DNA from: Macrostomum lignano
Lineage: Eukaryota
Length of the DNA stretch: 53,415 bases
Direction: 5' to 3'
Assembly: GCA_002269645.1 (NCBI GenBank)
Contig: NIVC01003551.1
Location: 38,309 to 91,723, forward strand
Shown here piece by piece: positions 1 to 48,482 of the stretch. The notes beneath the pieces were generated by a model. It was given only the letters and a program-made list of their open reading frames with translations, was not told the DNA's origin and ran no database searches. Positions within the stretch are counted from its first letter, which is position 1. Each line of letters opens with the position of its first letter. The translations under genes were made by a program, and so were the position numbers.

Positions 1-2
1 CC

Positions 3-482
3 TGCAGCATTGGTGTACGCAGAATTAACTGTCCATATATACCCAAAATTGGCAGAATTAGCGCGCGCCCACCCACCCCATAACGTCTATAGAATTAACT
101 GTCCATATTAACTGTCCATATATACCCAAAATTGGCAGAATTAGAGCGCGCCCGCCCACCCCATAACGGTCCATATTATTACTTGTCCATATTTACTGTC
201 CATATATACACCCAAAATTGGCAGAATTAGCGCGCGCCCACCCACCCCATAACGTCCATATTATTACTTGTCCATATTTACTGTCCATCCCAAAATTGTT
301 GTACGCACAGAATTGTAGCGCCCGCCCACCCCATAACTGTCCACATTATTGCTTGTCCATATTTACTGTCCATATATACACCCAAAATTGGTGTACGCAC
401 AGAATTGTCTGTGACCCCCACAAAATTGGCGGTCCCACGCGGAGGCATGATGAGTCAGCCGCTGTAAATCGCCGCTATCCAC
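3..482 (+). repeat. Left terminal inverted repeat containing ~5 imperfect 80-90 bp subrepeats
   Basis: TGCAGCATTGGTGTACGCAGAATTAACTGTCCATAT (from base 3) is the reverse complement of ~9778-9813. CACGCGGAGGCATGATGAGTCAGC...GTAAATCGCCGCTATCCAC matches ~9497-9545. CCCAAAATT recurs at ~42, 124, 211, 289, 381. Confidence 0.92.
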
Positions 483-641: not shown

Positions 642-1269
642 TTATTTAGCATACACAATTGGGTGACGACCCAAAACATTTGAATAATAGCGAGCAGGAG
701 CATTTTGCAAACAGTTTACAATCAAGTATGAGTAGGGGTCGCGAGTAGCATCCTCATACGTTTTGACAAAACTTTTTGGATTAGTGGGGACCAGCTGCCT
801 TGCAATATGAGACACTGTGCTGGCATCCCGTACATTGCGGAATAAAACAAGGTAGTTCGAATTGAGCGACTGAGTTCGGTGCTCCTTACCCTTTGCAAAC
901 AGGTTTTGCACAAGATACCAAAGTCGGAACCCCACGTGGGAGACTTTGCGCGTGAAAAAAGTTGTAAAAGCGCCACTCTTTTCCATGGCATGCATTTGGT
1001 CGTCGACGACAAGCAGAATATTTGGTTCAGGGACATATTGTTCAGGATCAAATGTACACGAACGAAAATTTACAGGGTACGGCAATTCAAACAGTTCAGG
1101 ATCCGGATAGTGGCCAAACCAGTCTACGCGAATCGGCTTCGGATCTTGAAAAAATTCTTGTCTCAATAGGTTTTTCACAAGTGTGGTCTTGCCGCTTTGA
1201 GCCACCCCAGCAAAAATTGCCGGTTTTGGGGGCAAATTTTAAAGAGTCGGGGTCTATTGTTTGATACAT
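642..1269 (-). CDS. A32/FtsK-type DNA packaging ATPase (frameshift near 5' end)
   Basis: Walker A GVAQSGKT, Walker B LLVVDD, Polinton-type SH...VQNLF...RTQSLNSNYLVLFRNVRD. The ATG at 1269 (MYQTIDPDSLKFAP) joins the main frame if one A is removed from a run near 1225. Confidence 0.93.
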
Positions 1270-1292: not shown

Positions 1293-1741
1293 TTATGGAT
1301 GATGCTGCTTTATTTGTAGACAGTGATTCTGCACCATCAAGTCGTTCTCGTAAAGATTTGTGCTATAACAGTCGCGCAATATTTTTTCAATTGACAGACC
1401 CTCCAGAAAGTGTTTTCAGCCACAAATATTACATGAGCCCCGCAGGTCACACTCAGCGGATGCTGTACAGGATGCCGGTTCATGGCCACCTCCACAGGGA
1501 CATACTTTGCGATCCACAACTTTAATAAATCTGGCACAGGATCGATACACAAGGGGTCAAAAAATGTCACGCTCTCATCGGCATGAAGACAAATTAAAGC
1601 CCAGTGAGTGCCTGGTAGATTGCCAGTGTCAAAGTTAATCACGTATGCAGCAGGATAAACAGGCTGCGGAATCCTGTCAACTGGTGTTACTCGAACAGGG
1701 ACAGGTAGTATTAGACGTTCTAATATATCTAGACTATTCAT
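1293..1741 (-). CDS. Adenain-like maturation cysteine protease (frameshift near 3' end)
   Basis: INFDTGNLPGTHW, FFDP, VQHPLSVTCGAH give the His/Asp/Gln/Cys catalytic set. Adding one A near 1415 restores the typical tail KHFLEGLSIEKILRDCYSTNLYENDLMV, ending at 1293. Confidence 0.9.
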
Positions 1742-1787: not shown

Positions 1788-3051
1788 CTACACGTAGTCT
1801 AGAATAACCTGACGACCGCGAGTGATTTGCACAGTATTGTCAAAGTAGCCAAACACCAACACGTTGATTCCTGCGGCCAAGGCAGCAGAAAACTTTATTT
1901 GTAGCGTCAGATTCCCTCGCTCGCGAGGCATGCTATGCCCGCCCAGCTCCATGTCGGGCATGAGATTCCAGGCGAAGAAGCAGTAGCCAGCTCCATAGTC
2001 GGAATATGATACGTCAATATCCAGGTCCCGATTCATCTTTCCTAGGCTTTTTAGTAGCATGGCATACTCGCGAGCATAGTTATGAACACCGAATCGAGGA
2101 GTAAACGGTTGTCCACACAGACTGACTCCGTCCTTATACAGAGCGACACTGTCTGCCCAAACGGTTCAAAATTAAACGGGTTATGTGTAGCCACACCGTT
2201 GTATGCGCCGCTGTTCACCATGCCAACAACCACTAGTTTAGGCTTTTGTTCAGGAAATATATTATTGATTGACATGTCCCGAACACCGCCAGCCACTGAA
2301 GTATTGTGCATTCTGTTTGCATTCTGTTTGCCTAGTTGTTCTTCAATCTCCAATGCCAATTGGGGGTTTGCCTTGACGCGGCGCACATGTAGTTTGGCAC
2401 TCTCGAGTACTAGCCGCGCATCAACCCCGTCCGCGTGGTTTTCCAGAACGAAGCCGGAATTGTGCATGGTCAGCGTAATTACCATATCAGTGTATGGCAG
2501 TAGCATTCGGTCGTTGGTAACAAAAAAGTCTAAACTAAGAGGTCCATAAAGGTGAAAGGTGCGTGAGTTTGCCGCCATCGCCTTGCGGGCTACAAAGCCA
2601 GGATTTCCAACCACAGCCATTTGACCTCCAGCGTCCTTTGCGTAGCCCATCATTCTCAGTTGATTAGTTTTTGAATCGTGTCCGTAATTCAAACACGTGA
2701 GAATATAGGCCTTGTAAGCGTGGTTGTTATTGCTCGACTCTACGTGTGTCCCGTTGATTGTCAACGTGACGTTTTTAAACATGCTTTCAAGGACGTAATT
2801 GACCGGCGCAACATTCGAATCAGCAGCAAGATTTGTACCATTAGACTGCTTAACGCGGGCCTTAATCTCGAGGTCAATGTCGTTAAGATCGATAAACGTC
2901 TCACCACCAACAATCCTAAATTCGACCACGCTGGCATTTTCAACACTGGCAACAGGGTGAACTTCTTCAGTGGTGGCGCTAATTGCAGCAATTTGGTGTG
3001 CGCGAGGAGCAAAAGCTCGAATTCCGACTTTGTACACAGGCACTCAGTCAT
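1788..3051 (-). CDS. Double-jelly-roll major capsid protein (Polinton PY/hexon-like), split by two frameshifts
   Basis: N-terminus MTECLCTKSEFELF from ATG 3051 (shift near 3011); core PVNYVLESMFKNV...HAYKAYILTCLNYGHDSKTNQL...NPFNF; after a shift near 2135 YKDGVSLCGQPFTPRFGVHNYAREYAMLLKSLG...GAGYCFFAWNLMPD...FDNTVQI. Confidence 0.92.
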
Positions 3052-3095: not shown

Positions 3096-3464
3096 TCACT
3101 TATTGGCACGGGTTTTTTTATTTATAGAGTCGAAAATATCAGAATGCTGCAGTCTTTTTCTCGTTTTTTTGTTAGTCATCTTTCTTCGTCTTTGTCTGCC
3201 GCTACCTCGTTGTGCGACTGTGTCCTTGAAAGCATCTTTAGCTGCCTGGACAGAGTTACGCAATGCCGCTTCTTTCAAGTTCCCGCCTTGATCGAGTGTG
3301 TCGCTAACTGTTGTAGCTAGGGCTCGTGTTCCGTGGCGAAGAATATTTTTGCCAAAACTCTTTAAAATTGGCAGGGCAAATCGGGCAATGCTGCCAAACA
3401 GGCCGTTGCCGCGCTGTGCACCGGAAAATACCGGTAAAGCTCCTCCGATCAAGATTGAAGGCAT
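3096..3464 (-). CDS. Small basic virion protein with amphipathic helix (adenovirus pVI-like / 'cupiennin'-like adintovirus protein)
   Basis: QRGNGLFGSIARFALPILKSFGKNILRHG amphipathic helix, second QRGSG motif followed by an Arg/Lys-rich tail; located between penton and MCP as in animal Polintons. Family name is from recall. Confidence 0.7.
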   Translation of the reverse strand: MPSILIGGALPVFSGAQRGNGLFGSIARFALPILKSFGKNILRHGTRALATTVSDTLDQGGNLKEAALRNSVQAAKDAFKDTVAQRGSGRQRRRKMTNKKTRKRLQHSDIFDSINKKTRANK

Positions 3465-3508
3465 ATTGTCGATCAGTTGCTACCTTTTATTCGTGAAAAC
3501 TTCTTTAT

Positions 3509-4662
3509 TTATAGCTTAATTTCACGAATGTTGATCGATAAAACAGTTTTGCCTCGAAGAATCCGATCCATTAACTTGCCCATATCGTCACAGATTTGCA
3601 CCTCAATGGTTTTGAATGGGTGTTTCACCAACGGTAAGTAGGATGGATTGACAAACTCGTAGTACTCTCGTTCGCCGTATACCTTTTCATTCAAAGGAAT
3701 TGCCCCAAGCAGGGGGACTTTGACGTCTCCAACAATGGCAGAGTCGACAATATTTGAATAGATGTACATAGTTTGTACACCATTTGTTAAATCGATTGGT
3801 CGTTTAGCGGTCTTTGGAGTTTCATTGAAAACATCTTCGCGAAAGCCGAGAATGGCAGCAAGCTCTCCAATGTCGAATAAAATGTTTTCAATGGGTTTGT
3901 ACTCACACCGGTTCAGAAAAGGGTTGTAGTGGAATGCATCCACTCTCGTCGCTGGACTTATTGGGAGCTTTGAAACGACGCCCCAAAGCGCTCCATTAAC
4001 ATAATTTAAGAGCTCATCAGGCGTGCGGTAGAATCCTTTAGCAATCCGCAGTGACGTTCTAGAAGGCCAGACACTCTTTTCAAACGTTAGAGTCATCGGA
4101 CTCTCTATGGAGGAGGAGGACTCCAATTCTATAGCGAATACTAACGAATTTCTTGGGTTTAATAAAAAAGTCGTTACTTCGATATTTGATTTATTTCCAG
4201 CGTCATCAACCTTTTTAAACATGCTACGCACATTACTGGACAGCCTAATGTTCGCACCATACCATGATTTGTTCACAATTGAAATTTGGCCTTCCTGTGA
4301 ACGCTCAATGCAAATCATCGCATTATCGTCTTGCTCATATTTTAGATCGGCGATGATTGCATCAACCACTTCGTTGGCTGTTGATAGCCCCGCGGCGAGA
4401 GAAACCGACGCAAACTGTTTATACGTGGAGGCGGGTTTTTCTCTCACCTCAATGTCAATCACTTCATCCTCGGAGCGTTGGTCAGGACATCAACCATTCG
4501 ATTATCGGGGACGGTTTTGAATTCTTTACAAAAGTAGATCCGTTCGATGCAGACTTCATGATTCGGAAAGTGGAGGGTGTCGGGCAAATTAATGCTATAA
4601 TGTGCCGAATTATTCTCAGGATAGTGCTCAACGCACGCATTGCTAGGTAGGAATAGATGCAT
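3509..4662 (-). CDS. Minor capsid protein (penton, Polinton PX), frameshifted near 4462
   Basis: N-terminal LFLPSNACVEHYPEN...INLPDTLHF...EVCIERIYF (4459-4662) and C-terminal DLTNGVQTMYIYSNIV...VGDVKVPLLGAIP...PSYLPL...FKTIEVQICDDMG (3509-4462). Confidence 0.88.
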
Positions 4663-4696
4663 TGTAATATACTACACATTTCGAGTGTATGTGTGT

Positions 4697-5763
4697 TCAT
4701 CCTTGTCTTATATTTATAACTTCCTCAACTGGTACAAATGCATTGAACGACTCGGATAGCCGCGCCAACTAACGAAATGATGAGCGACACCATTGATGAT
4801 GACATTGCGACGCAGAATTTTGTCTATAACAAAGCGGTCCGGTCGAACCGTCTTTGAAAGTTCATTATAGTAGAATCGACCCTCGATTTGTTCTCCAGAT
4901 AGGTCGGAAATGCGATAAAAATGAGGCGGTCCCGGGCATACTTGAGACACAACGTAAACTTCTTCGCTGTACATATCGTATGCTTCCTTGTCAAAGGCTC
5001 GACGAGATTTTGAAATTCTGACAAAGTCCCCTTTTTGGTAAACTGGTTCATCATATTCAGGATCCTTGTAGAGCTTTTCCCACAATTCTTTTTGATTGTG
5101 CAGACCGACACTCGAAGGTTTCATATCAATAGTAGAGTGTACTGTGTTGTTGTAACTTTCAACCAATATTGGCAAATAGTCGATCCAACGCCACGTGTTT
5201 TTATGCTCAAAGTAGCGAGCTAAACGTTTTCGGAGAGTCCTAATCAGCCTTTCAGCCATATTTGCCTTGTATACAGAGTTTGTACTGTACATTTTGATAT
5301 TATGGGCTTTCAGTAAGTTCTGCATGCGATTGTTATAAAACTCGGTACCTCGATCAACGTGTAGATATAAAGGCTTAATGGGGAAGTCTTTGATCATGCT
5401 TTCAAAAGCCTTTGGAGTGTCGCTTTTCAATTTTATTGACTGACAAAAAGCCAATTTACTAAGCACGTCAATTGCAACTAGAATATATCGATGACCATCA
5501 TTCCATTGTTCGTATCGCGACATGTCCATCAAATCCGCTTGCACAGTTTCCATGAAGCCTCCCGACATTACTTTTCCGGTTCGGAATTTTCTTTTAACCC
5601 TCTTGTGCCGGGTGTAGCTCGATTGGGTCTTCAGCCATTCGTCTGTTTGGCGTCTCGTCAGGGAGGGGACCAGCCGTTTGGCCTCCTGATATACACGGGC
5701 AGCATTTGTAAAAGCGGCGTCCCCCTGTTCGTACACTCTCCGAAGAGCGGTTTTCACCCTCAT
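4697..5763 (-). CDS. Retroviral-like (RVE) DDE integrase with C-terminal chromodomain
   Basis: QADLMDM, VDRGTEF, AERLIRTL (D-D-E); C-terminal FVIDKILRR...FVSWRGYP. One extra T restores SRFNAFVPVEEV ending at 4697. First ATG is at 5763. Confidence 0.95.
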
Positions 5764-5900
5764 TCGCAACTAGATTCGATGCACAGCATGAGTAATTACA
5801 CTTGAACTCCACAGACGGTTTGTCTGAGCAAAGCTTTGAAGTTACAGCTGCGGCACCCATGATCCAAAAACAGATTATAAATCATGAAAATGATTTCTAT

Positions 5901-6551
5901 TTATAGTTTTTTTAACGTCTCGTATTTTACTGCTGGTTTCTGCCGCCTCTTTGGTTCGCGAAGTTGGTATGAAGCATGCCTGTAGGCATTGCTGCCACGA
6001 TCTTCATATTTTTTAATTTCATTCAGGCCACTGGCTTGGTCTTTGTGGAAGTCGTTGTAGAAATCATTAGTTCCAATTGCTTGCTCGACTAAAAAATCGT
6101 CTCGATCCGGATCCGTGCCGACTTCTTTTTTCACACTGACTTCTTCTTGTTGGCGTCGTCTAGTAGAGCTTTTGCAATATCTGCCTCTTCGGCCAGGGCC
6201 CAAAAAAGCGGTACTATATTTTGGGCTTGGGCGGTCGCGCCTTTCATTCGATGTAATCTCCTTCAATAGATCGAAAATATTGCTTCCTGGCCAGGTTTTT
6301 CCATCAAATACAATTTCCCACGACTTGTTGTACTCCAAATTTGGGTATCTTTCTGCCAGCATGTCCCAAACACGTTGTTGTCGTTCAGGAAAGCGATTAC
6401 TCTTCTTTTGCTTGATCTGACTTAGTTTATTTTGGAGTTGAGTGTTGTATTCAATGAGTTTTTCATATTCTGTTTTGGATGCAATTTCTCGGGGTGCGCC
6501 TTGACTTAGTCTATTAAATTCTTCTTCTGGTACAACAACGTATTTATTCAT
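5901..6551 (-). CDS. Conserved Polinton hypothetical protein (GSNIxDL motif), probable internal frameshift near 6205
   Basis: MNKYVVVP start and WEIVFDGKTWPGSNIFDLL resemble a gene commonly found at this position in animal Polintons (recall). ATG at 6551 abuts the upstream stop codon. Confidence 0.65.
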   Translation of the reverse strand: MNKYVVVPEEEFNRLSQGAPREIASKTEYEKLIEYNTQLQNKLSQIKQKKSNRFPERQQRVWDMLAERYPNLEYNKSWEIVFDGKTWPGSNIFDLLKEITSNERRDRPSPKYSTAFLGPGRRGRYCKSSTRRRQQEEVSVKKEVGTDPDRDDFLVEQAIGTNDFYNDFHKDQASGLNEIKKYEDRGSNAYRHASYQLREPKRRQKPAVKYETLKKL

Positions 6552-6552
6552 T

Positions 6553-6909
6553 TTAGCGACCAAGTAGTCCGCCAAACAGGCTTGATATTAGCGGTGCAGC
6601 AACGAATGCAAGGATGGGTAGAAAGCCACCGACTTGAGGATTCGAGAGAAGCATATTTTTCTTCCTATTTATAGACAATTTTGTGTCTGCCAATTCACGC
6701 AACGATCTTCTGTATCGCTTTAATCGCAGATACTGTTTCGGAGAAAGATCGATATTTCCCCGGAGCACGTTGTGACTCAATTCACAGAGACAATGAATCA
6801 GTTCCTTGCCTGCACCTCGAATAATGGCCCGCCGAAGAGCGGGACGGGCTTTGGCGAGCTCTGCGAGCTCGCCGCGACAAGAACATAGTCTGGAGATTCC
6901 GTTTGTCAT
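6553..6909 (-). CDS. Conserved Polinton protein with adenovirus pX-like C-terminus
   Basis: LIHCLCELSHNVLRGNIDL...LKRYRRSLRELA...QVGGFLPILAFVAAPLISSLFGG. The GGFLP plus hydrophobic tail parallels adenovirus pX. Likely start is ATG 6909, 53 nt below a TATA motif. Confidence 0.75.
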   Translation of the reverse strand: MTNGISRLCSCRGELAELAKARPALRRAIIRGAGKELIHCLCELSHNVLRGNIDLSPKQYLRLKRYRRSLRELADTKLSINRKKNMLLSNPQVGGFLPILAFVAAPLISSLFGGLLGR

Positions 6910-7049
6910 TTTGTTTAGCAAAAAGATGTTGGTTGCAGTGCACTGCAATTTATGCACAATATATTTATAGACAATTTCATAGCAGCTTGTACGTACATAC
7001 AAATTCGGTACAGTGGTAAAGCAGTAAAGTTACGCAACAGCTACATGGA

Positions 7050-7529
7050 TTAGGCATGCAAAACGCTAGTCACATGATCGTACATTTGACAGAGCTCTTT
7101 AAAGTTTCGTATTCCAAGGAAAACAAGGCGGCCATTCTTTCCGCATAATAAACATTTAGCATTGCGAAATGGAGACTTTATTACTATTCCATTGAAAACT
7201 TCACACTCCCACTTCACCCAGCGGGACCCGGAGTATGCAATTTGGAAAAAAATTGGCCATCTGTCTACTTCAGCGCGGTAAGTACTAGTGGTAACAACAA
7301 CAGAAATTGGTTTACATTGAGGAAAAAGACGCAAAACTTGGTTGATGGAGCGACAACCGAATACAATTGCAGACAAAGAACGCTGAAAAAAGTTGATTGT
7401 ACATTTTCCTATTCGCAAATTGATAAGAGCTCTTGGTCTGCGAAATTTCCGTGCGCTCGCCCAGTCCAAGTCAGGCATGCGGCTCCATTTCGCGCAAAAC
7501 ACTCGGTTCACACACTCGACGTTCTGCAA
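7050..7529 (-). CDS. Divergent TATA-binding-protein (TBP)-like protein
   Basis: Manual alignment to the TBP core: VNRV...PDL vs QNIV...LDL; IVFGCRS vs VCTGAKS; WECEVFNG vs YEPELFPG; NGRLVFLGIRNFKELCQMYDHVTSVL vs [26 protein letters not shown]. Annotated start is TTG, not ATG. Confidence 0.7.
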   Translation of the reverse strand: MQNVECVNRVFCAKWSRMPDLDWASARKFRRPRALINLRIGKCTINFFQRSLSAIVFGCRSINQVLRLFPQCKPISVVVTTSTYRAEVDRWPIFFQIAYSGSRWVKWECEVFNGIVIKSPFRNAKCLLCGKNGRLVFLGIRNFKELCQMYDHVTSVLHA

Positions 7530-8260
7530 GTAGATTTTTCGGCTGTTTTTACTTTCGTATCCTTCTTTGGGGCTTTCGACCGCTTCTTTGATTCGTTGGC
7601 TGCTACTAGTTTCGATTGATGCTGTCGCTTTCTGGCCTGACTTTTAGGCACCTTTGGCTGCTTCTCCTTGACAAGCTTTGGTGGTTTCTTTGCTTTCTTG
7701 CTTACTTTCTTGACGCCTACCTTGATTTTTGGAGGTGGCGTCCAAAAGCAACGATCGAATGCCTGTTTGGCTTCTTCGACAAACTGTAGCTGTTGAATTT
7801 TTGGCATTGCGGTCAAAACAGCGTCTCGAATCACGGCCGTGTCGAGAGTAAACAGAATCCTGTAGTAGCCGCTCTTGTTTTTGTAATCCTCTACAGGCAG
7901 TCCGTTTTGGTCGTACATTTTAAAGTCGTGAGCCAGCCCAAACGCTGCACTGTCACCTCCAAACGCTGGGTTGTAGCCCAGCAGAGCTAGACTTTCGCTG
8001 GAAAGGTGCTCCGCCACAGTGTTGAAAGTGTAGGGTATGCAGCTTTCAATGTGTTTTTGTGCAATGATGATGAATTCGCGACCTTCGTTGTCAGTACGCA
8101 CGCCCTTGACGATCAAAACAGGGACCGCATTGGCCAAGTAGAGAGGTCCCTGTTCGTCATATTCAATGTCAAACGTTTCAACCCCGTTGAAGCTCGGACC
8201 TCGCGGTTTGAGTGCCAGCAGCTCTCGCTTGACGCAGTTGAAGTCTTGCACTGTCTCCAT
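7508..8260 (-). CDS. Hypothetical protein: globular domain (possibly OB-fold ssDNA-binding) plus Lys-rich tail
   Basis: Intact 250-aa ORF with ATG ~60 nt below TATATAAG. C-terminal ~70 aa are Lys/Pro/Ala-rich (KKVSKKAKKPPKLVKEK). Confidence 0.7.
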   Translation of the reverse strand: METVQDFNCVKRELLALKPRGPSFNGVETFDIEYDEQGPLYLANAVPVLIVKGVRTDNEGREFIIIAQKHIESCIPYTFNTVAEHLSSESLALLGYNPAFGGDSAAFGLAHDFKMYDQNGLPVEDYKNKSGYYRILFTLDTAVIRDAVLTAMPKIQQLQFVEEAKQAFDRCFWTPPPKIKVGVKKVSKKAKKPPKLVKEKQPKVPKSQARKRQHQSKLVAANESKKRSKAPKKDTKVKTAEKSTCRTSSV

Positions 8261-8275: not shown

Positions 8276-8534
8276 AGAAAAATTTGCAGGTACGGGCGCT
8301 TGCAGATGCTCCGGGCTGGTGCTTATATACCCGAGAGTCTCAATAAGTTTTTGTTTTAATTACACGATAACGAGCTTTTTACAGAGTTGTCGTTATCGAG
8401 GATTCCGGAAAAATGAACCTTTTGTTCCTATTTTCGGGTGCTGGCGTTGGAGGTGTGCTGAAATCCTTGCTCCAAGTTGCTGGTAGTTCAAGCTTTGGCG
8501 GCCTGTTCCTCTTGTGCTTTGGCAGCCAAAAATT
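8276..8534. repeat. Internal direct repeat, copy A (~259 bp)
   Basis: Colinear with 8970-9224, e.g. GTGCTTATATACCCGAGAGTCTCAATAAGTTTTTGTTTTAATTACA is identical in both. Confidence 0.95.
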
Positions 8535-8891
8535 CCAAATCTTTTGTTGCTCCTCCCACGACGGATTATACAGATCTTGATGGTTCCGAAAACGTATTTT
8601 TTGGCGACGCTCTTCACTTAGTATCGGAGCCAGTAATCTCTCCATTCGTGCTAAATCAGCTTTGAATCTCATTTTGTCCCGTAGTTGCTCATTTATCCTG
8701 GCTGCTGCGTAGTCTTGGCTGTCGTAGGGGCCTTGATCAATTTCCTCGACCTTGGCATTGAAGGTGACTAATCGCTCGGAAATCGGTTTGCTGTGGCAAA
8801 TGCACAACCAGTCAGCAGATTTTTTCAAGGCCTCATATTCGTCTTTTTCCTCGTTCGATAATAGGGGGTAGTCTCTGGAAATCCAGCTCAT
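8379..8891 (-). CDS. Hypothetical element protein (ORFan)
   Basis: Intact 170-aa ORF downstream of a TATATAAG at 9013-9020; C-terminus shared with ORF 9084-9335. Confidence 0.6.
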   Translation of the reverse strand: MSWISRDYPLLSNEEKDEYEALKKSADWLCICHSKPISERLVTFNAKVEEIDQGPYDSQDYAAARINEQLRDKMRFKADLARMERLLAPILSEERRQKIRFRNHQDLYNPSWEEQQKIWNFWLPKHKRNRPPKLELPATWSKDFSTPPTPAPENRNKRFIFPESSITTTL

Positions 8892-8969: not shown

Positions 8970-9224
8970 AGAAAAATTTGCAGGTACGGGTGCTTGGTGC
9001 CCTTGGTTGGTGCTTATATACCCGAGAGTCTCAATAAGTTTTTGTTTTAATTACATGTTAACGAGCTTTTTACGGTGTTGTCGTTATCGAGGATTCCAGA
9101 AAAAAGAGACTTTTGTACCTATTTTCGGTGTTGGCGTTGGAGGTGTGTTGAAATCTTTGCTCAAAGTTGTTGGCAGTTCATGCTTTGTCGGTCTGATCCT
9201 CTTGTGCTTTGGGAACCAAAAATT
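8970..9224. repeat. Internal direct repeat, copy B (~255 bp)
   Basis: Imperfect copy of 8276-8534. Confidence 0.95.
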
Positions 9225-9335
9225 GCTTGTCAAACACTGCGTTTTCCACATGATTGGGTTGTTAATTGAACTTGGTGAATTTAGATAAGCGGCCGAGAAT
9301 CCAAATTTTCTTATTTTAGTTTGCTGTCTGAACAA
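9084..9335 (-). CDS. Truncated or degraded paralog of the 8379-8891 C-terminus
   Basis: NFWFPKHKRIRPTKHELPTTLSKDFNTPPTP vs NFWLPKHKRNRPPKLELPATWSKDFSTPPTP. Confidence 0.4.
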   Translation of the reverse strand: MFRQQTKIRKFGFSAAYLNSPSSINNPIMWKTQCLTSNFWFPKHKRIRPTKHELPTTLSKDFNTPPTPTPKIGTKVSFFWNPR

Positions 9336-9496: not shown

Positions 9497-9813
9497 GTGG
9501 ACAGCGGCGATTTACTGGCTGACTGACTCATCATGCCTCCGCGTGGGGCCGCCAATTAATTGTGGGGGTCAAAGAATATTTTCTTGGATGGGTGGGCGCT
9601 ACAATTCTGTGCGTACACGAAGTTTGGTATATAAACAGCTATGGGGTGGGCGGGCGCTACAATTCTGCGCGTACACCAATTTTGGGATGGACAGTAAATA
9701 TGGACAAGTAATAATATGGACCGTTATGGGGTGGGTAGGCGCTCTAATTCTGCCAATTTTGGGTATATGGACAGTTAATATGGACAGTTAATTCTGCGTA
9801 CACCAATGCTGCA
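9497..9813 (-). repeat. Right terminal inverted repeat (fewer subrepeats than the left)
   Basis: Reverse-complement match to 3-482 with internal units missing. Confidence 0.92.
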
Positions 9814-10319
9814 TTGTGTGGGGATGGGGGCGCGCGCGCGCTTCTGCGTACAACAACTGCGATGCGCTAATTATGCGTACTATATTGTACTCGTCGCTGC
9901 TGTACGATACAGTGTACACTGATTACATGTATAGATTTTACATGAGAGCATAAATGTCTCACATAATGACTCTGGACCAATTAGAATCGGTCTAATGTAT
10001 TTAGATAGGCGTTGAATTTGCATTGGCTCTGACACCCACCTCACCTCCAAAACCCAGCAGAATCTGCACGATACGTAGTGTAGTTATATATTGCTTAAAA
10101 TTAGCTGGCTCAAGCTCGGAACTATACTGTACTGGATGTTTAAGTTCAAAATGCGATTCAAATCGTCCTTATGTTTATTCAAATTCGCGATACTGCGGTC
10201 AGGTCCAGAAAGTTGCGCTTTGTTCATTTCTTATGTCAAAACAAATTTAAGAACACTGGTGGATCCAAGGCGTCAAGAAGGTGATCGGCTGACTCCACCC
10301 ACACGAAAAAATTAGGGGG

Positions 10320-11760
10320 TCATGACCTCCGGGAAAAATCGTGGACCCGACACTGGTTCTCGCGATCCTGGTCCCGATCTTTCCTCTCCTAGCTTTATAG
10401 CTATGGCCCTTGCAGACGATCTGAAGCCTTTTTGGGATATCCGCACCCAAAAATCGGTGCTTGAAATTCTGCATGCGAGGCACACTGGCATCGTGAAAAT
10501 GGATCTGAAGGCTAAGGACTGTTTCTACTGGCCAGCGTGGAGGTATGGCTAGTGAATTTGAATCGTGCTGGCCAGCGTGGAGTAGGTGGCTAGTGAATTT
10601 GAATCGTGCTGGCCAGCGTGGAGTAGGTGGCTAGTGAATTTGAATCGTGCTGGCCAGCGTGGAGTAGGTGGCTAGTGAATTTGAATCGTGCTGGCCAGCG
10701 TGGAGGTATGGCTAGTGAATTTGAATCGTGCTGGCCAGCGTGGAGGTAGGTGGCTAGTGAATTTGAATCGTGCTGGCCAGCGTGGAGGTAGGTGGCTAGT
10801 GAATTTGAATCGTGCTGGCCAGCGTGGAGGTATGGCTAGTGAATTTGAATCGTGCTGGCCAGCGTGGAGGTATGGCTAGTGAATTTGAATCGTGCTGGCC
10901 AGCGTGGAGGTAGGTGGCTAGTGAATTTGAATCGTGCTGGCCAGCGTGGAGGTATGGCTAGTGAATTTGAATCGTGCTGGCCAGCGTGGAGGTATGGCTA
11001 GTGAATTTGAATCGTGCTGGCCAGCGTGGAGTAGGTGGCTAGTGAATTTGAATCGTGCTGGCCAGCGTGGAGTAGGTGGCTAGTGAATTTGAATCGTGCT
11101 GGCCAGCGTGGAGTAGGTGGCTAGTGAATTTGAATCGTGCTGGCCAGCGGAATATGAGGACTCAGTGCAAAGAACCGTTGATGGCTGTGGATAGGCCGAA
11201 TTTTCAGTTCAAAATTTGTTTGACGAATCTGTTTGAGTTCACTGGTGGGTCCTACTAAATTGGTGTACGTTGGCTCCTACAGCCGCTGGATGAGTGTCAC
11301 ACGGATGAGATCAACTACTAGCTTGGCTGTGGCGAATGTCATACGGGAAAATTTTCAAAACTTTGGAGCGCCAGAGAAGCTGCTAGTCAGTGATGGAGGT
11401 CCGCAGTTTTCTGCTCGGGAGTTTCGACAGAAAATGGCTGAGTTCAAGGTGGAACACAGAATTTCAAAGTCCAGCGTAGCCAAAAGCATGCTGAAGAAAT
11501 TCTCCGAGACAGGCCAAAGTCTGGAGCTGGCATTTGCTTCACTACCGCAACGCACCAGTCGGCAGCGGCTTTCCAAGCCCGGCGAAGATGGCTCTCGACC
11601 GTATGCTTCATAGTGACCTGCCAGGGACTGTCAAGGACCCGCGACCAAAGGAAACTCGTATTCACTCCAGCATTGAGGCTTTTGTAAGAAAGTGCGGTAG
11701 AGCAGCGCAGCTGTACAATCGTGGAGCTCGACAGTTGCGGAAACTATCGGCTGATGATCT
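10320..11760 (+). pseudogene. Decayed Ty3/Gypsy-type integrase fragment
   Basis: LHARHTGIVKM...AKDCFYWP (zinc-binding region), then CKEPLM, LFEF, YSRW, FGAPEKLVSDGGPQFSAREF, HYRNAP...SPA, spread over shifting frames. Confidence 0.85.
10528..11149 (+). repeat. Minisatellite, ~15 copies of a 40-43 bp unit
   Basis: Unit CTGGCCAGCGTGGAG(G)TA(GG)TGGCTAGTGAATTTGAATCGTG, head-to-tail. Confidence 0.97.

Positions 11761-41765: not shown

Positions 41766-48482
<6,717 letters not shown>

What the first reader, a model, noticed from the sequence alone, without database searches (positions are those of the whole stretch)
3119..6970. Conserved (C/T)TATAAATA motif above six consecutive genes: candidate late promoter matched to the TBP-like factor
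Seen: five exact CTATAAATA and one TTATAAATA on the coding strand, each 42-135 nt above an ATG. Several are embedded in the 3' end of the upstream gene: the 5898 copy contains the stop codon, and the 3119 and 3506 copies overlap AATAAA. A rough hand estimate gives about 0.1 chance copy of the 9-mer per element strand. The two non-structural ORFs instead have TATATAAG (8322, 9013). Inference: two promoter classes (early and late), with some sites doubling as poly(A) signal and TATA box.
Basis: partly seen in the sequence, partly recalled or inferred. Interest (0 to 1): 0.75.

Follow-up and report, generated by a model that had tools for sequence, protein, structure and literature searches.

The report
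Polinton lineages carry private TATA codes
Six consecutive genes of a virus-like transposon sit behind the same TATA-like word, and four such transposon lineages in this one genome each carry their own TATA-binding-like gene and their own different word, so each lineage likely switches on its late genes with a private protein-promoter pair.

Summary
Observation confirmed: six YTATAAATA lie on the coding strand of a Polinton-like element (0.18 expected). All seven sites of intact copies survive in a sister family whose 4-fold sites are only 40% identical. Out-of-frame ATGs fall sevenfold beyond +36, as expected of a TATA box. The ORF at 7050-7523 is TBP-like (Pfam in the sister family, fold search) and is likely exon 2 of a spliced gene behind a different, canonical box (GGGTATATAAG); the two such boxes are one duplicated promoter. 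Decisive context: three other Polinton lineages in this genome each encode a divergent TBP-like protein and use their own word (TATAAGC, YTTAAGAA, YATAAGA); a lineage with no detectable TBP shows none. Best reading (0.7): a private TBP reads a private late promoter, as in herpesvirus vTBP/TATT. Binding, start sites, timing and splicing are untested, and host TBP could read TATAAATA. The scan noted Maverick TBP plus a shared word before, in other genomes; my literature searches found no such report. In addition, this element lacks a polymerase, while polymerase-only elements share its termini and early promoter: a candidate two-segment Polinton.

The parts
6962..6970 (-). CTATAAATA, intergenic, 60 nt before the 118-aa ORF
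   Evidence: kept in 18 of 19 family-A copies with the flank and in family B with diverged flanks
6666..6674 (-). CTATAAATA inside the 118-aa ORF, 122 nt before the 216-aa ORF
   Evidence: 25 of 25 family-A copies; family B
5898..5906 (-). CTATAAATA holding the stop of the 216-aa ORF; +45 to the small MGA ORF, +142 to the integrase ATG
   Evidence: 26 of 27 family-A copies
4711..4719 (-). TTATAAATA at the integrase 3' end, 56 nt before the putative minor capsid gene
   Evidence: 21 of 21 family-A copies
3506..3514 (-). CTATAAATA holding the minor-capsid stop and overlapping AATAAA; 49 nt before the 122-aa ORF
3119..3127 (-). CTATAAATA inside the 122-aa ORF, overlapping AATAAA; 75 nt before the major capsid gene
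1311..1319 (-). variant CTACAAATA overlapping AATAAA, 49 nt before the ATPase start; candidate eighth site
   Evidence: same variant at +48 in family B
9312..9319 (-). eroded seventh site; intact TATAAATA in sister copies and in family B
8322..8332 (-). GGGTATATAAG, candidate early (host-TBP) promoter of the orfB/TBP-like gene, ATG at +69
   Evidence: conserved in family B; same GGGTATATAA in polymerase-only elements
9013..9023 (-). duplicate of the 8322 promoter, before orfA
   Evidence: 259 nt, 88% identical; absent from family B
7721..8260 (-). orfB, predicted exon 1 (180 codons); function untested (an SSB-like OB fold is only my recalled impression)
   Evidence: structure model unusable, pLDDT 39
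7524..7720 (-). predicted intron (AAG|GTAGG ... TTGCAG|), 197 nt here, 67 nt in family B
   Evidence: inferred, no spliced contig seen
7050..7523 (-). TBP-like domain, predicted exon 2 (157 aa)
   Evidence: Pfam PF00352 over cut-off in the family-B copy; 13 of 14 weak PDB hits are TBP; Foldseek hits listed down to rank 44 are TBP or TBP-containing complexes
8379..8891 (-). orfA, 170 aa, unknown
6553..6909 (-). 118-aa basic ORF with amphipathic tail (Polinton core-protein-like by recall; no family hit)
5901..6551 (-). 216-aa ORF, unknown
   Evidence: weak match to ORFs of pPolB Polintons
5594..5860 (-). 88-aa Cys-rich ORF starting MGAAA, overlapping the integrase start; conserved in family B (92 aa)
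4714..5763 (-). retroviral-like integrase
   Evidence: Pfam rve E 2.4e-8
3509..4662 (-). putative minor capsid gene, broken in this copy
   Evidence: name from gene order and recall
3096..3464 (-). 122-aa basic ORF (core-protein-like by recall)
1788..3051 (-). putative major capsid gene, broken in this copy
   Evidence: 26-35% to the matching gene of pPolB Polintons; open 427-aa ORF in sister copies
1337..1741 (-). cysteine protease; no conserved motif in front of it
   Evidence: (Peptidase_C48 E 0.064 in family B)
642..1269 (-). packaging ATPase, broken near its start in this copy
1..470 (.). left terminal inverted repeat, cut off by an assembly gap
9500..10079 (.). right terminal inverted repeat (approximate inner edge), ending GTAGT

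Best explanation
YTATAAATA is likely the lineage-specific late-promoter TATA box of this Polinton-like element, likely read by the element's own TBP-like protein, which would recruit host RNA polymerase II. Inferred steps: host TBP fires the canonical GGGTATATAAG promoter; splicing joins orfB to the TBP-like exon; that protein binds the invariant octamer placed before each downstream gene, often inside the end of the previous gene; transcription starts about 30-35 nt downstream, and the first ATG is used. Shown: the motif, its conservation, its geometry, the TBP homology, and that each of four co-resident Polinton lineages pairs its own TBP-like gene with its own word.
For: Enrichment 6 vs 0.18. 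7 of 7 octamers are identical between families A and B while 4-fold sites are 40% identical (194 of 481). Out-of-frame or short-ORF ATGs number 18 in 976 nt at +8..+23 but 6 in 2244 nt beyond +36 (Fisher p 8e-6; 61 of 66 sites). Cross-table of 13 elements: TATAAATA 6-7 in 3 of 3 window-type elements and at most 1 in the other 10; TATAAG[CT] 5-10 in 5 of 5 clade-3; YTTAAGAA 6-7 in 4 of 4 clade-2; YATAAGA 5 in the one clade-2b element. All four lineages encode TBP-like ORFs. Two complete AT-rich elements without a TBP hit show no clear excess of any word. YTTAAGAA and TATAAGC depart from the TATAWAWR consensus (recalled) at two or more positions. TBP genes of the window family, clade 3 (4 elements with the upstream region in hand) and clade 2b sit behind varied canonical boxes. 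The lineages with the most similar words (clades 2 and 2b) have sister TBPs (88/90).
Against: TATAAATA is a canonical TATA box, so in this family the word alone needs no viral factor. The TBP-like domain keeps only 2 of the 4 intercalating phenylalanines and lacks the second-repeat Asn (alignment; yeast positions recalled), so it may not bind DNA alone. The model is poor (pLDDT 56, TM 0.36), and the window's own copy has no Pfam TBP hit. Four lineages in one genome are too few to show co-evolution; the words were derived from the same elements; homologous sites are not independent; the tree carries long-branch warnings. The clade-2 TBP gene sits behind its own word, and the protease has no conserved site. 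One TBP-less element has 5 TATAAATA on one strand against 2.2 expected. No other viral transcription activators were identified, unlike the herpesvirus complex.
Confidence: 0.7

Rival explanations
1. The sites are ordinary TATA boxes read by host TBP; the TBP-like protein does something else, such as acting as a decoy or sequestering host factors.
For: TATAAATA fits TATAWAWR (recalled). The host TBP is canonical. Cellular TBP has been crystallised on single-base variants such as G(-26), C(-25) and T(-30) (entry titles). The element protein has lost contact residues. The review PMC4893493 notes that EBV BcRF1 binds TATA and TATT alike in vitro.
Against: It does not explain why each lineage homogenises 5-10 dispersed sites, many under coding constraint, to one word that differs between lineages in the same nucleus. 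Nor does it explain why the TBP genes themselves use varied canonical boxes.
Confidence: 0.19
2. The words mimic the late promoters of different helper viruses, as proposed for virophage EMALE types; TAAG in three of the words recalls the baculovirus late motif (recalled).
For: EMALE types carry different promoter motifs thought to match different giant viruses (PMC8547959 passages). TATAAGC, YTTAAGAA and YATAAGA contain TAAG.
Against: Out-of-frame ATGs are common just after the words and scarce only beyond +36; this fits an upstream TATA box, not initiation inside the motif. The window's word has no TAAG. Each lineage carries its own TBP-like gene.
Confidence: 0.06
3. The motif is mainly a 3'-end signal (stop codon plus poly(A) hexamer) or a by-product of coding sequence.
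For: 2 of 6 copies hold a stop codon and 2 of 6 overlap AATAAA.
Against: 4 of 6 lack AATAAA. One copy is intergenic with diverged flanks but an intact core. Coding copies keep identical codons where only 51% of same-residue codons are identical. ATG depletion lies downstream.
Confidence: 0.05

Closest known systems
Beta/gamma-herpesvirus viral TBP (BcRF1/ORF24/UL87) with TATT late promoters (PMC4893493, passages read)
   Same: A virus-encoded TBP-like protein paired with a modified TATA box as the main late-promoter element, using host polymerase II.
   Different: Here the factor is a 157-aa TBP domain likely fused to a 180-aa partner by splicing. No multi-subunit activator complex was identified. 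The window's word is canonical, and the word differs between co-resident lineages. Binding is untested.
Polintons/Mavericks (adintoviruses; 10.1101/697771 and PMC8097293, passages read)
   Same: Long TIRs, 6-bp target duplications, integrase, ATPase, protease and capsid-like genes.
   Different: No pPolB inside the TIRs, and termini are ACTAC...GTAGT rather than AGTAGT...ACTACT. The adintovirus paper lists TBP-like genes only in figure legends for MELD viruses and has no promoter analysis ('promoter' 0 occurrences); the vertebrate Maverick paper has no TBP.
Virophage/EMALE type-specific promoter motifs (PMC8547959, passages read)
   Same: Related integrated viruses in one host genome carry type-specific upstream motifs.
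   Different: Those motifs are ascribed to giant-virus machinery; here each lineage encodes its own candidate reader.
Bipartite bidnaviruses (described in 10.1101/697771, passage read)
   Same: Segments with matching termini, one carrying a protein-primed polymerase.
   Different: Bidnaviruses are ssDNA viruses; here integrated dsDNA Polinton-type elements with target duplications, and complementation is not shown.

Membership tests
Polinton/Maverick | Long terminal inverted repeats | tested here: met
   about 590 nt in family A, about 655 nt in family B
Polinton/Maverick | 6-bp target site duplication | tested here: met
   4 of 5 family-B and 1 of 4 family-A copies examined; the window copy cannot be judged because its left end is a gap
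Polinton/Maverick | Retroviral-like integrase | tested here: met
   Pfam rve E 2.4e-8
Polinton/Maverick | Protein-primed polB inside the element | tested here: not met
   TIR-bounded copies of 10-10.6 kb are filled by other genes; pPolB lies on separate elements with matching termini
Polinton/Maverick | Capsid, protease and ATPase module | tested here: met
   homology to the matching genes of pPolB Polintons in this genome; capsid folds not tested
Polinton/Maverick | AGT-type termini | tested here: not met
   ends are ACTAC...GTAGT; full Polintons here end AGTAGT...ACTACT
TATA-binding protein | Two-repeat TBP fold | tested here: met
   Pfam 23.0 vs cut-off 22.9 in family B; Foldseek alignments of 172-192 columns to TBPs, E from 9e-5, low TM
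TATA-binding protein | Four intercalating Phe and two Asn contacts | tested here: not met
   2 of 4 Phe and 1 of 2 Asn kept (positions recalled)
TATA-binding protein | Binds TATA DNA and TFIIB | not testable with these tools
   needs biochemistry
Pol II TATA-box promoter | Start about 25-35 nt downstream | tested here: inconclusive
   ATG depletion fits; only contigs were available, no 5' ends
Herpesvirus-type late promoter system | Non-canonical TATA word | tested here: inconclusive
   canonical in the window family, non-canonical in clades 2, 2b and 3
Herpesvirus-type late promoter system | Expression only after DNA replication, dependent on the viral TBP | not testable with these tools
   no time course or knock-down data
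Herpesvirus-type late promoter system | Multi-subunit viral pre-initiation complex | not tested
   no homologues were sought specifically; a PC4-like ORF was seen in clade 2 only

The most novel reading that the evidence does not exclude
Animal Polintons run a hidden early/late transcription cascade built on orthogonal TBP-promoter pairs that diverge between lineages, so co-resident viruses do not cross-activate; and this lineage is a two-segment virus, with capsid, integrase and TBP on one element and the polymerase on another that shares its termini and early promoter.
Probability: 0.45. Interest if true: 0.9.

Novelty: new variant of a known kind. Interest (0 to 1): 0.76.

Why it matters
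How integrated animal Polintons are switched on, and whether they have a viral life cycle, is open. A private TBP-promoter pair would give them a timed gene cascade and make activation testable with simple reporters and 5'-end mapping. TBP specificity is regarded as nearly invariant; four natural TBP variants, each with its own word and all in one host nucleus, would be a ready comparative set for how TBP recognition can be retuned. The polymerase-only partner elements would explain how a polymerase-less element keeps spreading, and would be a segmented form of Polinton that my searches did not find described.

Tried and rejected
Expression: no RNA holder was listed. I laid 8 of 24 listed runs, all contigs and none on record as RNA. 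No joint appeared at the predicted intron, contigs from six runs crossed all or part of it unspliced, and no start sites could be read; this is uninformative because the runs may be DNA and the unspliced mRNA is also expected. The motif is therefore untested outside this genome. A search for a longer fused orfB-TBP protein found none among 8000 scored candidates (weak evidence). The profile search returned unfused TBP-like relatives of all four clades, and its long hits were gene-model fusions or cellular TBPs. orfB function: no Pfam, PHROG or PDB hit; AlphaFold pLDDT 39; hhalign to the clade-3 exon-1 proteins gave only 2-4% probability, so their homology and the SSB label are unproven. The ESM Atlas gave no usable hit for a homologue and did not answer for orfB. 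Rejected: that the TBP-like ORF starts at the window's ATG 7478 (absent in family B); that 8322 and 9013 are independent promoters; my early impression that pPolB Polintons lack TBP, overturned. Left out of the cross-table: C273 (interrupted by a transposase), C1391 (degraded, no TBP hit) and the polymerase-only elements. The clade-3 element C4072 has a truncated pPolB. Host TATA-variant usage was not measured, and no complex prediction was run.
Full report
Observation. They lie in an element that runs from an assembly gap at the window's left edge to 10079, bounded by inverted repeats, with all genes on the minus strand. Within it TATAAATA occurs 6 times on the coding strand, 0 on the other, 0.18 expected. 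Two copies hold stop codons and two overlap AATAAA. The two TATATAAG boxes are one promoter duplicated (259 nt, 88% identical).

Conservation. The genome holds at least 22 close copies (family A) and a second family, B, at 70-78% nucleotide identity. Family B keeps all six sites plus a seventh that is also intact in A copies but eroded in the window. Between one A and one B copy, 4-fold degenerate sites are 40% identical (194 of 481) and same-residue codons 51%, yet 7 of 7 octamers are identical. Among family-A loci with the flank present, four sites are kept in 18 of 19, 25 of 25, 26 of 27 and 21 of 21 copies. A variant CTACAAATA before the ATPase is also shared; the protease has no conserved site.

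Geometry. I scored 66 motif sites in 10 elements; 5 had no ORF of 85 aa or more within 175 nt and were dropped. In the other 61, out-of-frame or short-ORF ATGs number 18 in 976 nt at +8..+23, 11 in 703 nt at +24..+35, and 6 in 2244 nt beyond +36 (Fisher p 8e-6). The patterns were widened slightly after inspection, and homologous sites are not independent. The result fits a TATA box with starts near +30 to +35 followed by scanning; it does not fit initiation inside the motif.

The TBP-like gene. The window copy has no Pfam hit. The family-B copy just passes the TBP cut-off and two outside homologues score weakly. 13 of 14 weak PDB hits are TBPs, and the Foldseek hits listed down to rank 44 for a pLDDT-56 model are TBPs or TBP-containing complexes. 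It keeps 2 of 4 intercalating Phe and 1 of 2 Asn contacts (positions recalled). Family B has no ATG for it. Both families have a donor after codon 180 of orfB and an acceptor giving a 157-aa second exon in frame, with introns of 195-206 and 67 nt (35 loci listed). Five full-length outside orfB homologues are conserved up to the same K-V position. Clade-3 elements show the same layout with strong splice signals (3 of 4). I infer a spliced fusion; a +1 frameshift or a non-AUG start remain possible, and no spliced contig was seen.

The natural experiment. My first screen suggested that pPolB-type Polintons here lack both the motif and TBP. A de novo count then showed other words, and a Pfam TBP search of the genome found many element-borne TBP-like ORFs beside the host TBP and a paralogue. 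Clade 2 and clade 2b ORFs score 74-85 bits; of four clade-3 ORFs two pass the cut-off, one scores 20.9 and one is found only by my profile. The cross-table of 13 elements is diagonal: TATAAATA 6, 7, 7 in the window type and 0-1 elsewhere; TATAAG[CT] 5-10 in five clade-3 elements; YTTAAGAA 6-7 in four clade-2 elements; YATAAGA 5 in clade 2b. The off-diagonal counts of note sit at the TBP genes' own promoters. Those promoters are varied canonical boxes in the window family, clade 2b and four clade-3 elements (TATATAAG, TATAAAAG, TATAAATA), but the lineage word in clade 2. Two complete 17-kb elements with no TBP hit show no clear excess of any word; the largest is 5 against 2.2. A tree joins the window type with clade 3 (96/96) and clade 2 with 2b (88/90), with long-branch warnings; four lineages cannot establish co-evolution.

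Mechanism. Most likely (0.7), host TBP fires the early GGGTATATAAG promoter, the spliced TBP-like protein is made, and it then directs host polymerase II to the invariant word before each later gene. Compactness is achieved by embedding boxes in upstream coding ends, at two sites over AATAAA. Shown: motif, conservation, geometry, TBP homology, diagonal pattern. Inferred: splicing, binding, timing and polymerase II recruitment. Rivals are host TBP alone (0.19; strongest for this family because TATAAATA is canonical), helper-virus mimicry (0.06) and a 3'-end signal (0.05).

The missing polymerase. Neither family has room for pPolB, and their ends are ACTAC...GTAGT, unlike the AGTAGT...ACTACT of full Polintons here. 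Separate 8.8-9.5 kb elements encode pPolB without integrase, capsid, ATPase or TBP (0 hits in 17 loci). They have 6-bp target duplications in 3 of 3 complete copies, share termini with families A and B, and carry GGGTATATAA promoters in 11 of 14 loci. This suggests a two-segment system; complementation is untested.

What is known. Herpesvirus vTBP with TATT boxes is the working analogue (PMC4893493, passages). TBP-like genes appear in figure legends for MELD viruses in the adintovirus preprint, with no promoter analysis (10.1101/697771, passages). Term searches found no TBP in PMC11161782, PMC8097293, PMC10748475 or 10.64898/2026.06.19.733378, and no promoter analysis in PMC12220804. EMALE types carry type-specific motifs ascribed to giant viruses (PMC8547959, passages). 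PMC5499653 states that Polintons by definition encode pPolB and integrase (abstract start in a listing), so this element fails strict membership while working like one. Nine library searches showed no report of a Polinton TBP-promoter pair or a bipartite Polinton. I read no supplements, and Repbase and most subscription journals are not covered, so prior description there is possible. Two earlier notes of this scan report a Maverick TBP with a shared TATA-like word in other genomes, and a third a TBP-bearing fragment; I saw them after reaching this reading and did not check them. What this window adds is the within-genome switch of word with TBP lineage, the splice architecture and the partner elements.

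Verdict. New variant of a known kind, interest 0.76.

Noticed in passing
L122:1200-9955; G000 C566 (L118/L130), C1159 (L120/L131); window 9500-10079: Numerous 8.8-9.5 kb TIR-bounded elements encode a pPolB but no integrase, capsid, ATPase or TBP (0 hits in 17 loci). They have 6-bp target duplications (3 of 3 complete copies), share ACTAC-type termini with families A and B, and use the same GGGTATATAA promoter (11 of 14 loci). Candidate partner segment of a bipartite Polinton.
   Followed up: partly
alignment A6: Termini are mosaic: family A shares its first ~30 nt with one polymerase-only type and the next ~30 nt with the other. The first ~28 nt vary between copies but match at the two ends of each copy.
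   Followed up: partly
window 7524-7720; L061, L075, L081: The TBP-like domain is likely a second exon in two lineages. In clade 3, in-frame GTGAG donors after PP-x-K-x-L meet pyrimidine-rich acceptors (3 of 4 elements). In the window family, exon 1 is 540 nt and exon 2 is 157 aa in both families, while the intron differs.
   Followed up: partly
window 5594-5860: Conserved overlapping Cys-rich ORF starting MGAAA (possible myristoylation, recalled) is the first ORF after the 5898 site; similar short MG-starting ORFs follow a TATAAGC site in clade 3.
   Followed up: partly
window 8322-8329: The early box GTATATAAGCA contains TATAAGCA, the clade-3 word, so cross-activation or a composite promoter is possible.
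   Followed up: no
L041:106-474; L035:5900-6690: Family B carries a Fic-domain gene at its start (Pfam E 2e-10) that family A lacks.
   Followed up: no
L067:4873-5532: Clade-2 Polintons encode a PC4-like transcriptional coactivator domain; clade 3 encodes dUTPase and PLA2-like genes.
   Followed up: no
L089-L091, L097-L099: AT-rich (67%) 17-kb pPolB elements with a Pox_A32-type ATPase have no TBP hit, and many ORFs have an A-run directly before the ATG, suggesting a different transcription system.
   Followed up: partly
G000 C4072:14540-22994: A polymerase-only element is inserted inside a clade-3 Polinton whose own pPolB is truncated.
   Followed up: no
P0016, P0020: Named public proteins nearly identical by eye to clade-2 ORFs are labelled Macrostomum lignano, so the host is likely this flatworm or a close relative.
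   Followed up: partly
window 10545-11150 and 43670-48300: Tandem arrays: a ~39-nt unit, and a long 8/12-nt microsatellite-like array.
   Followed up: no
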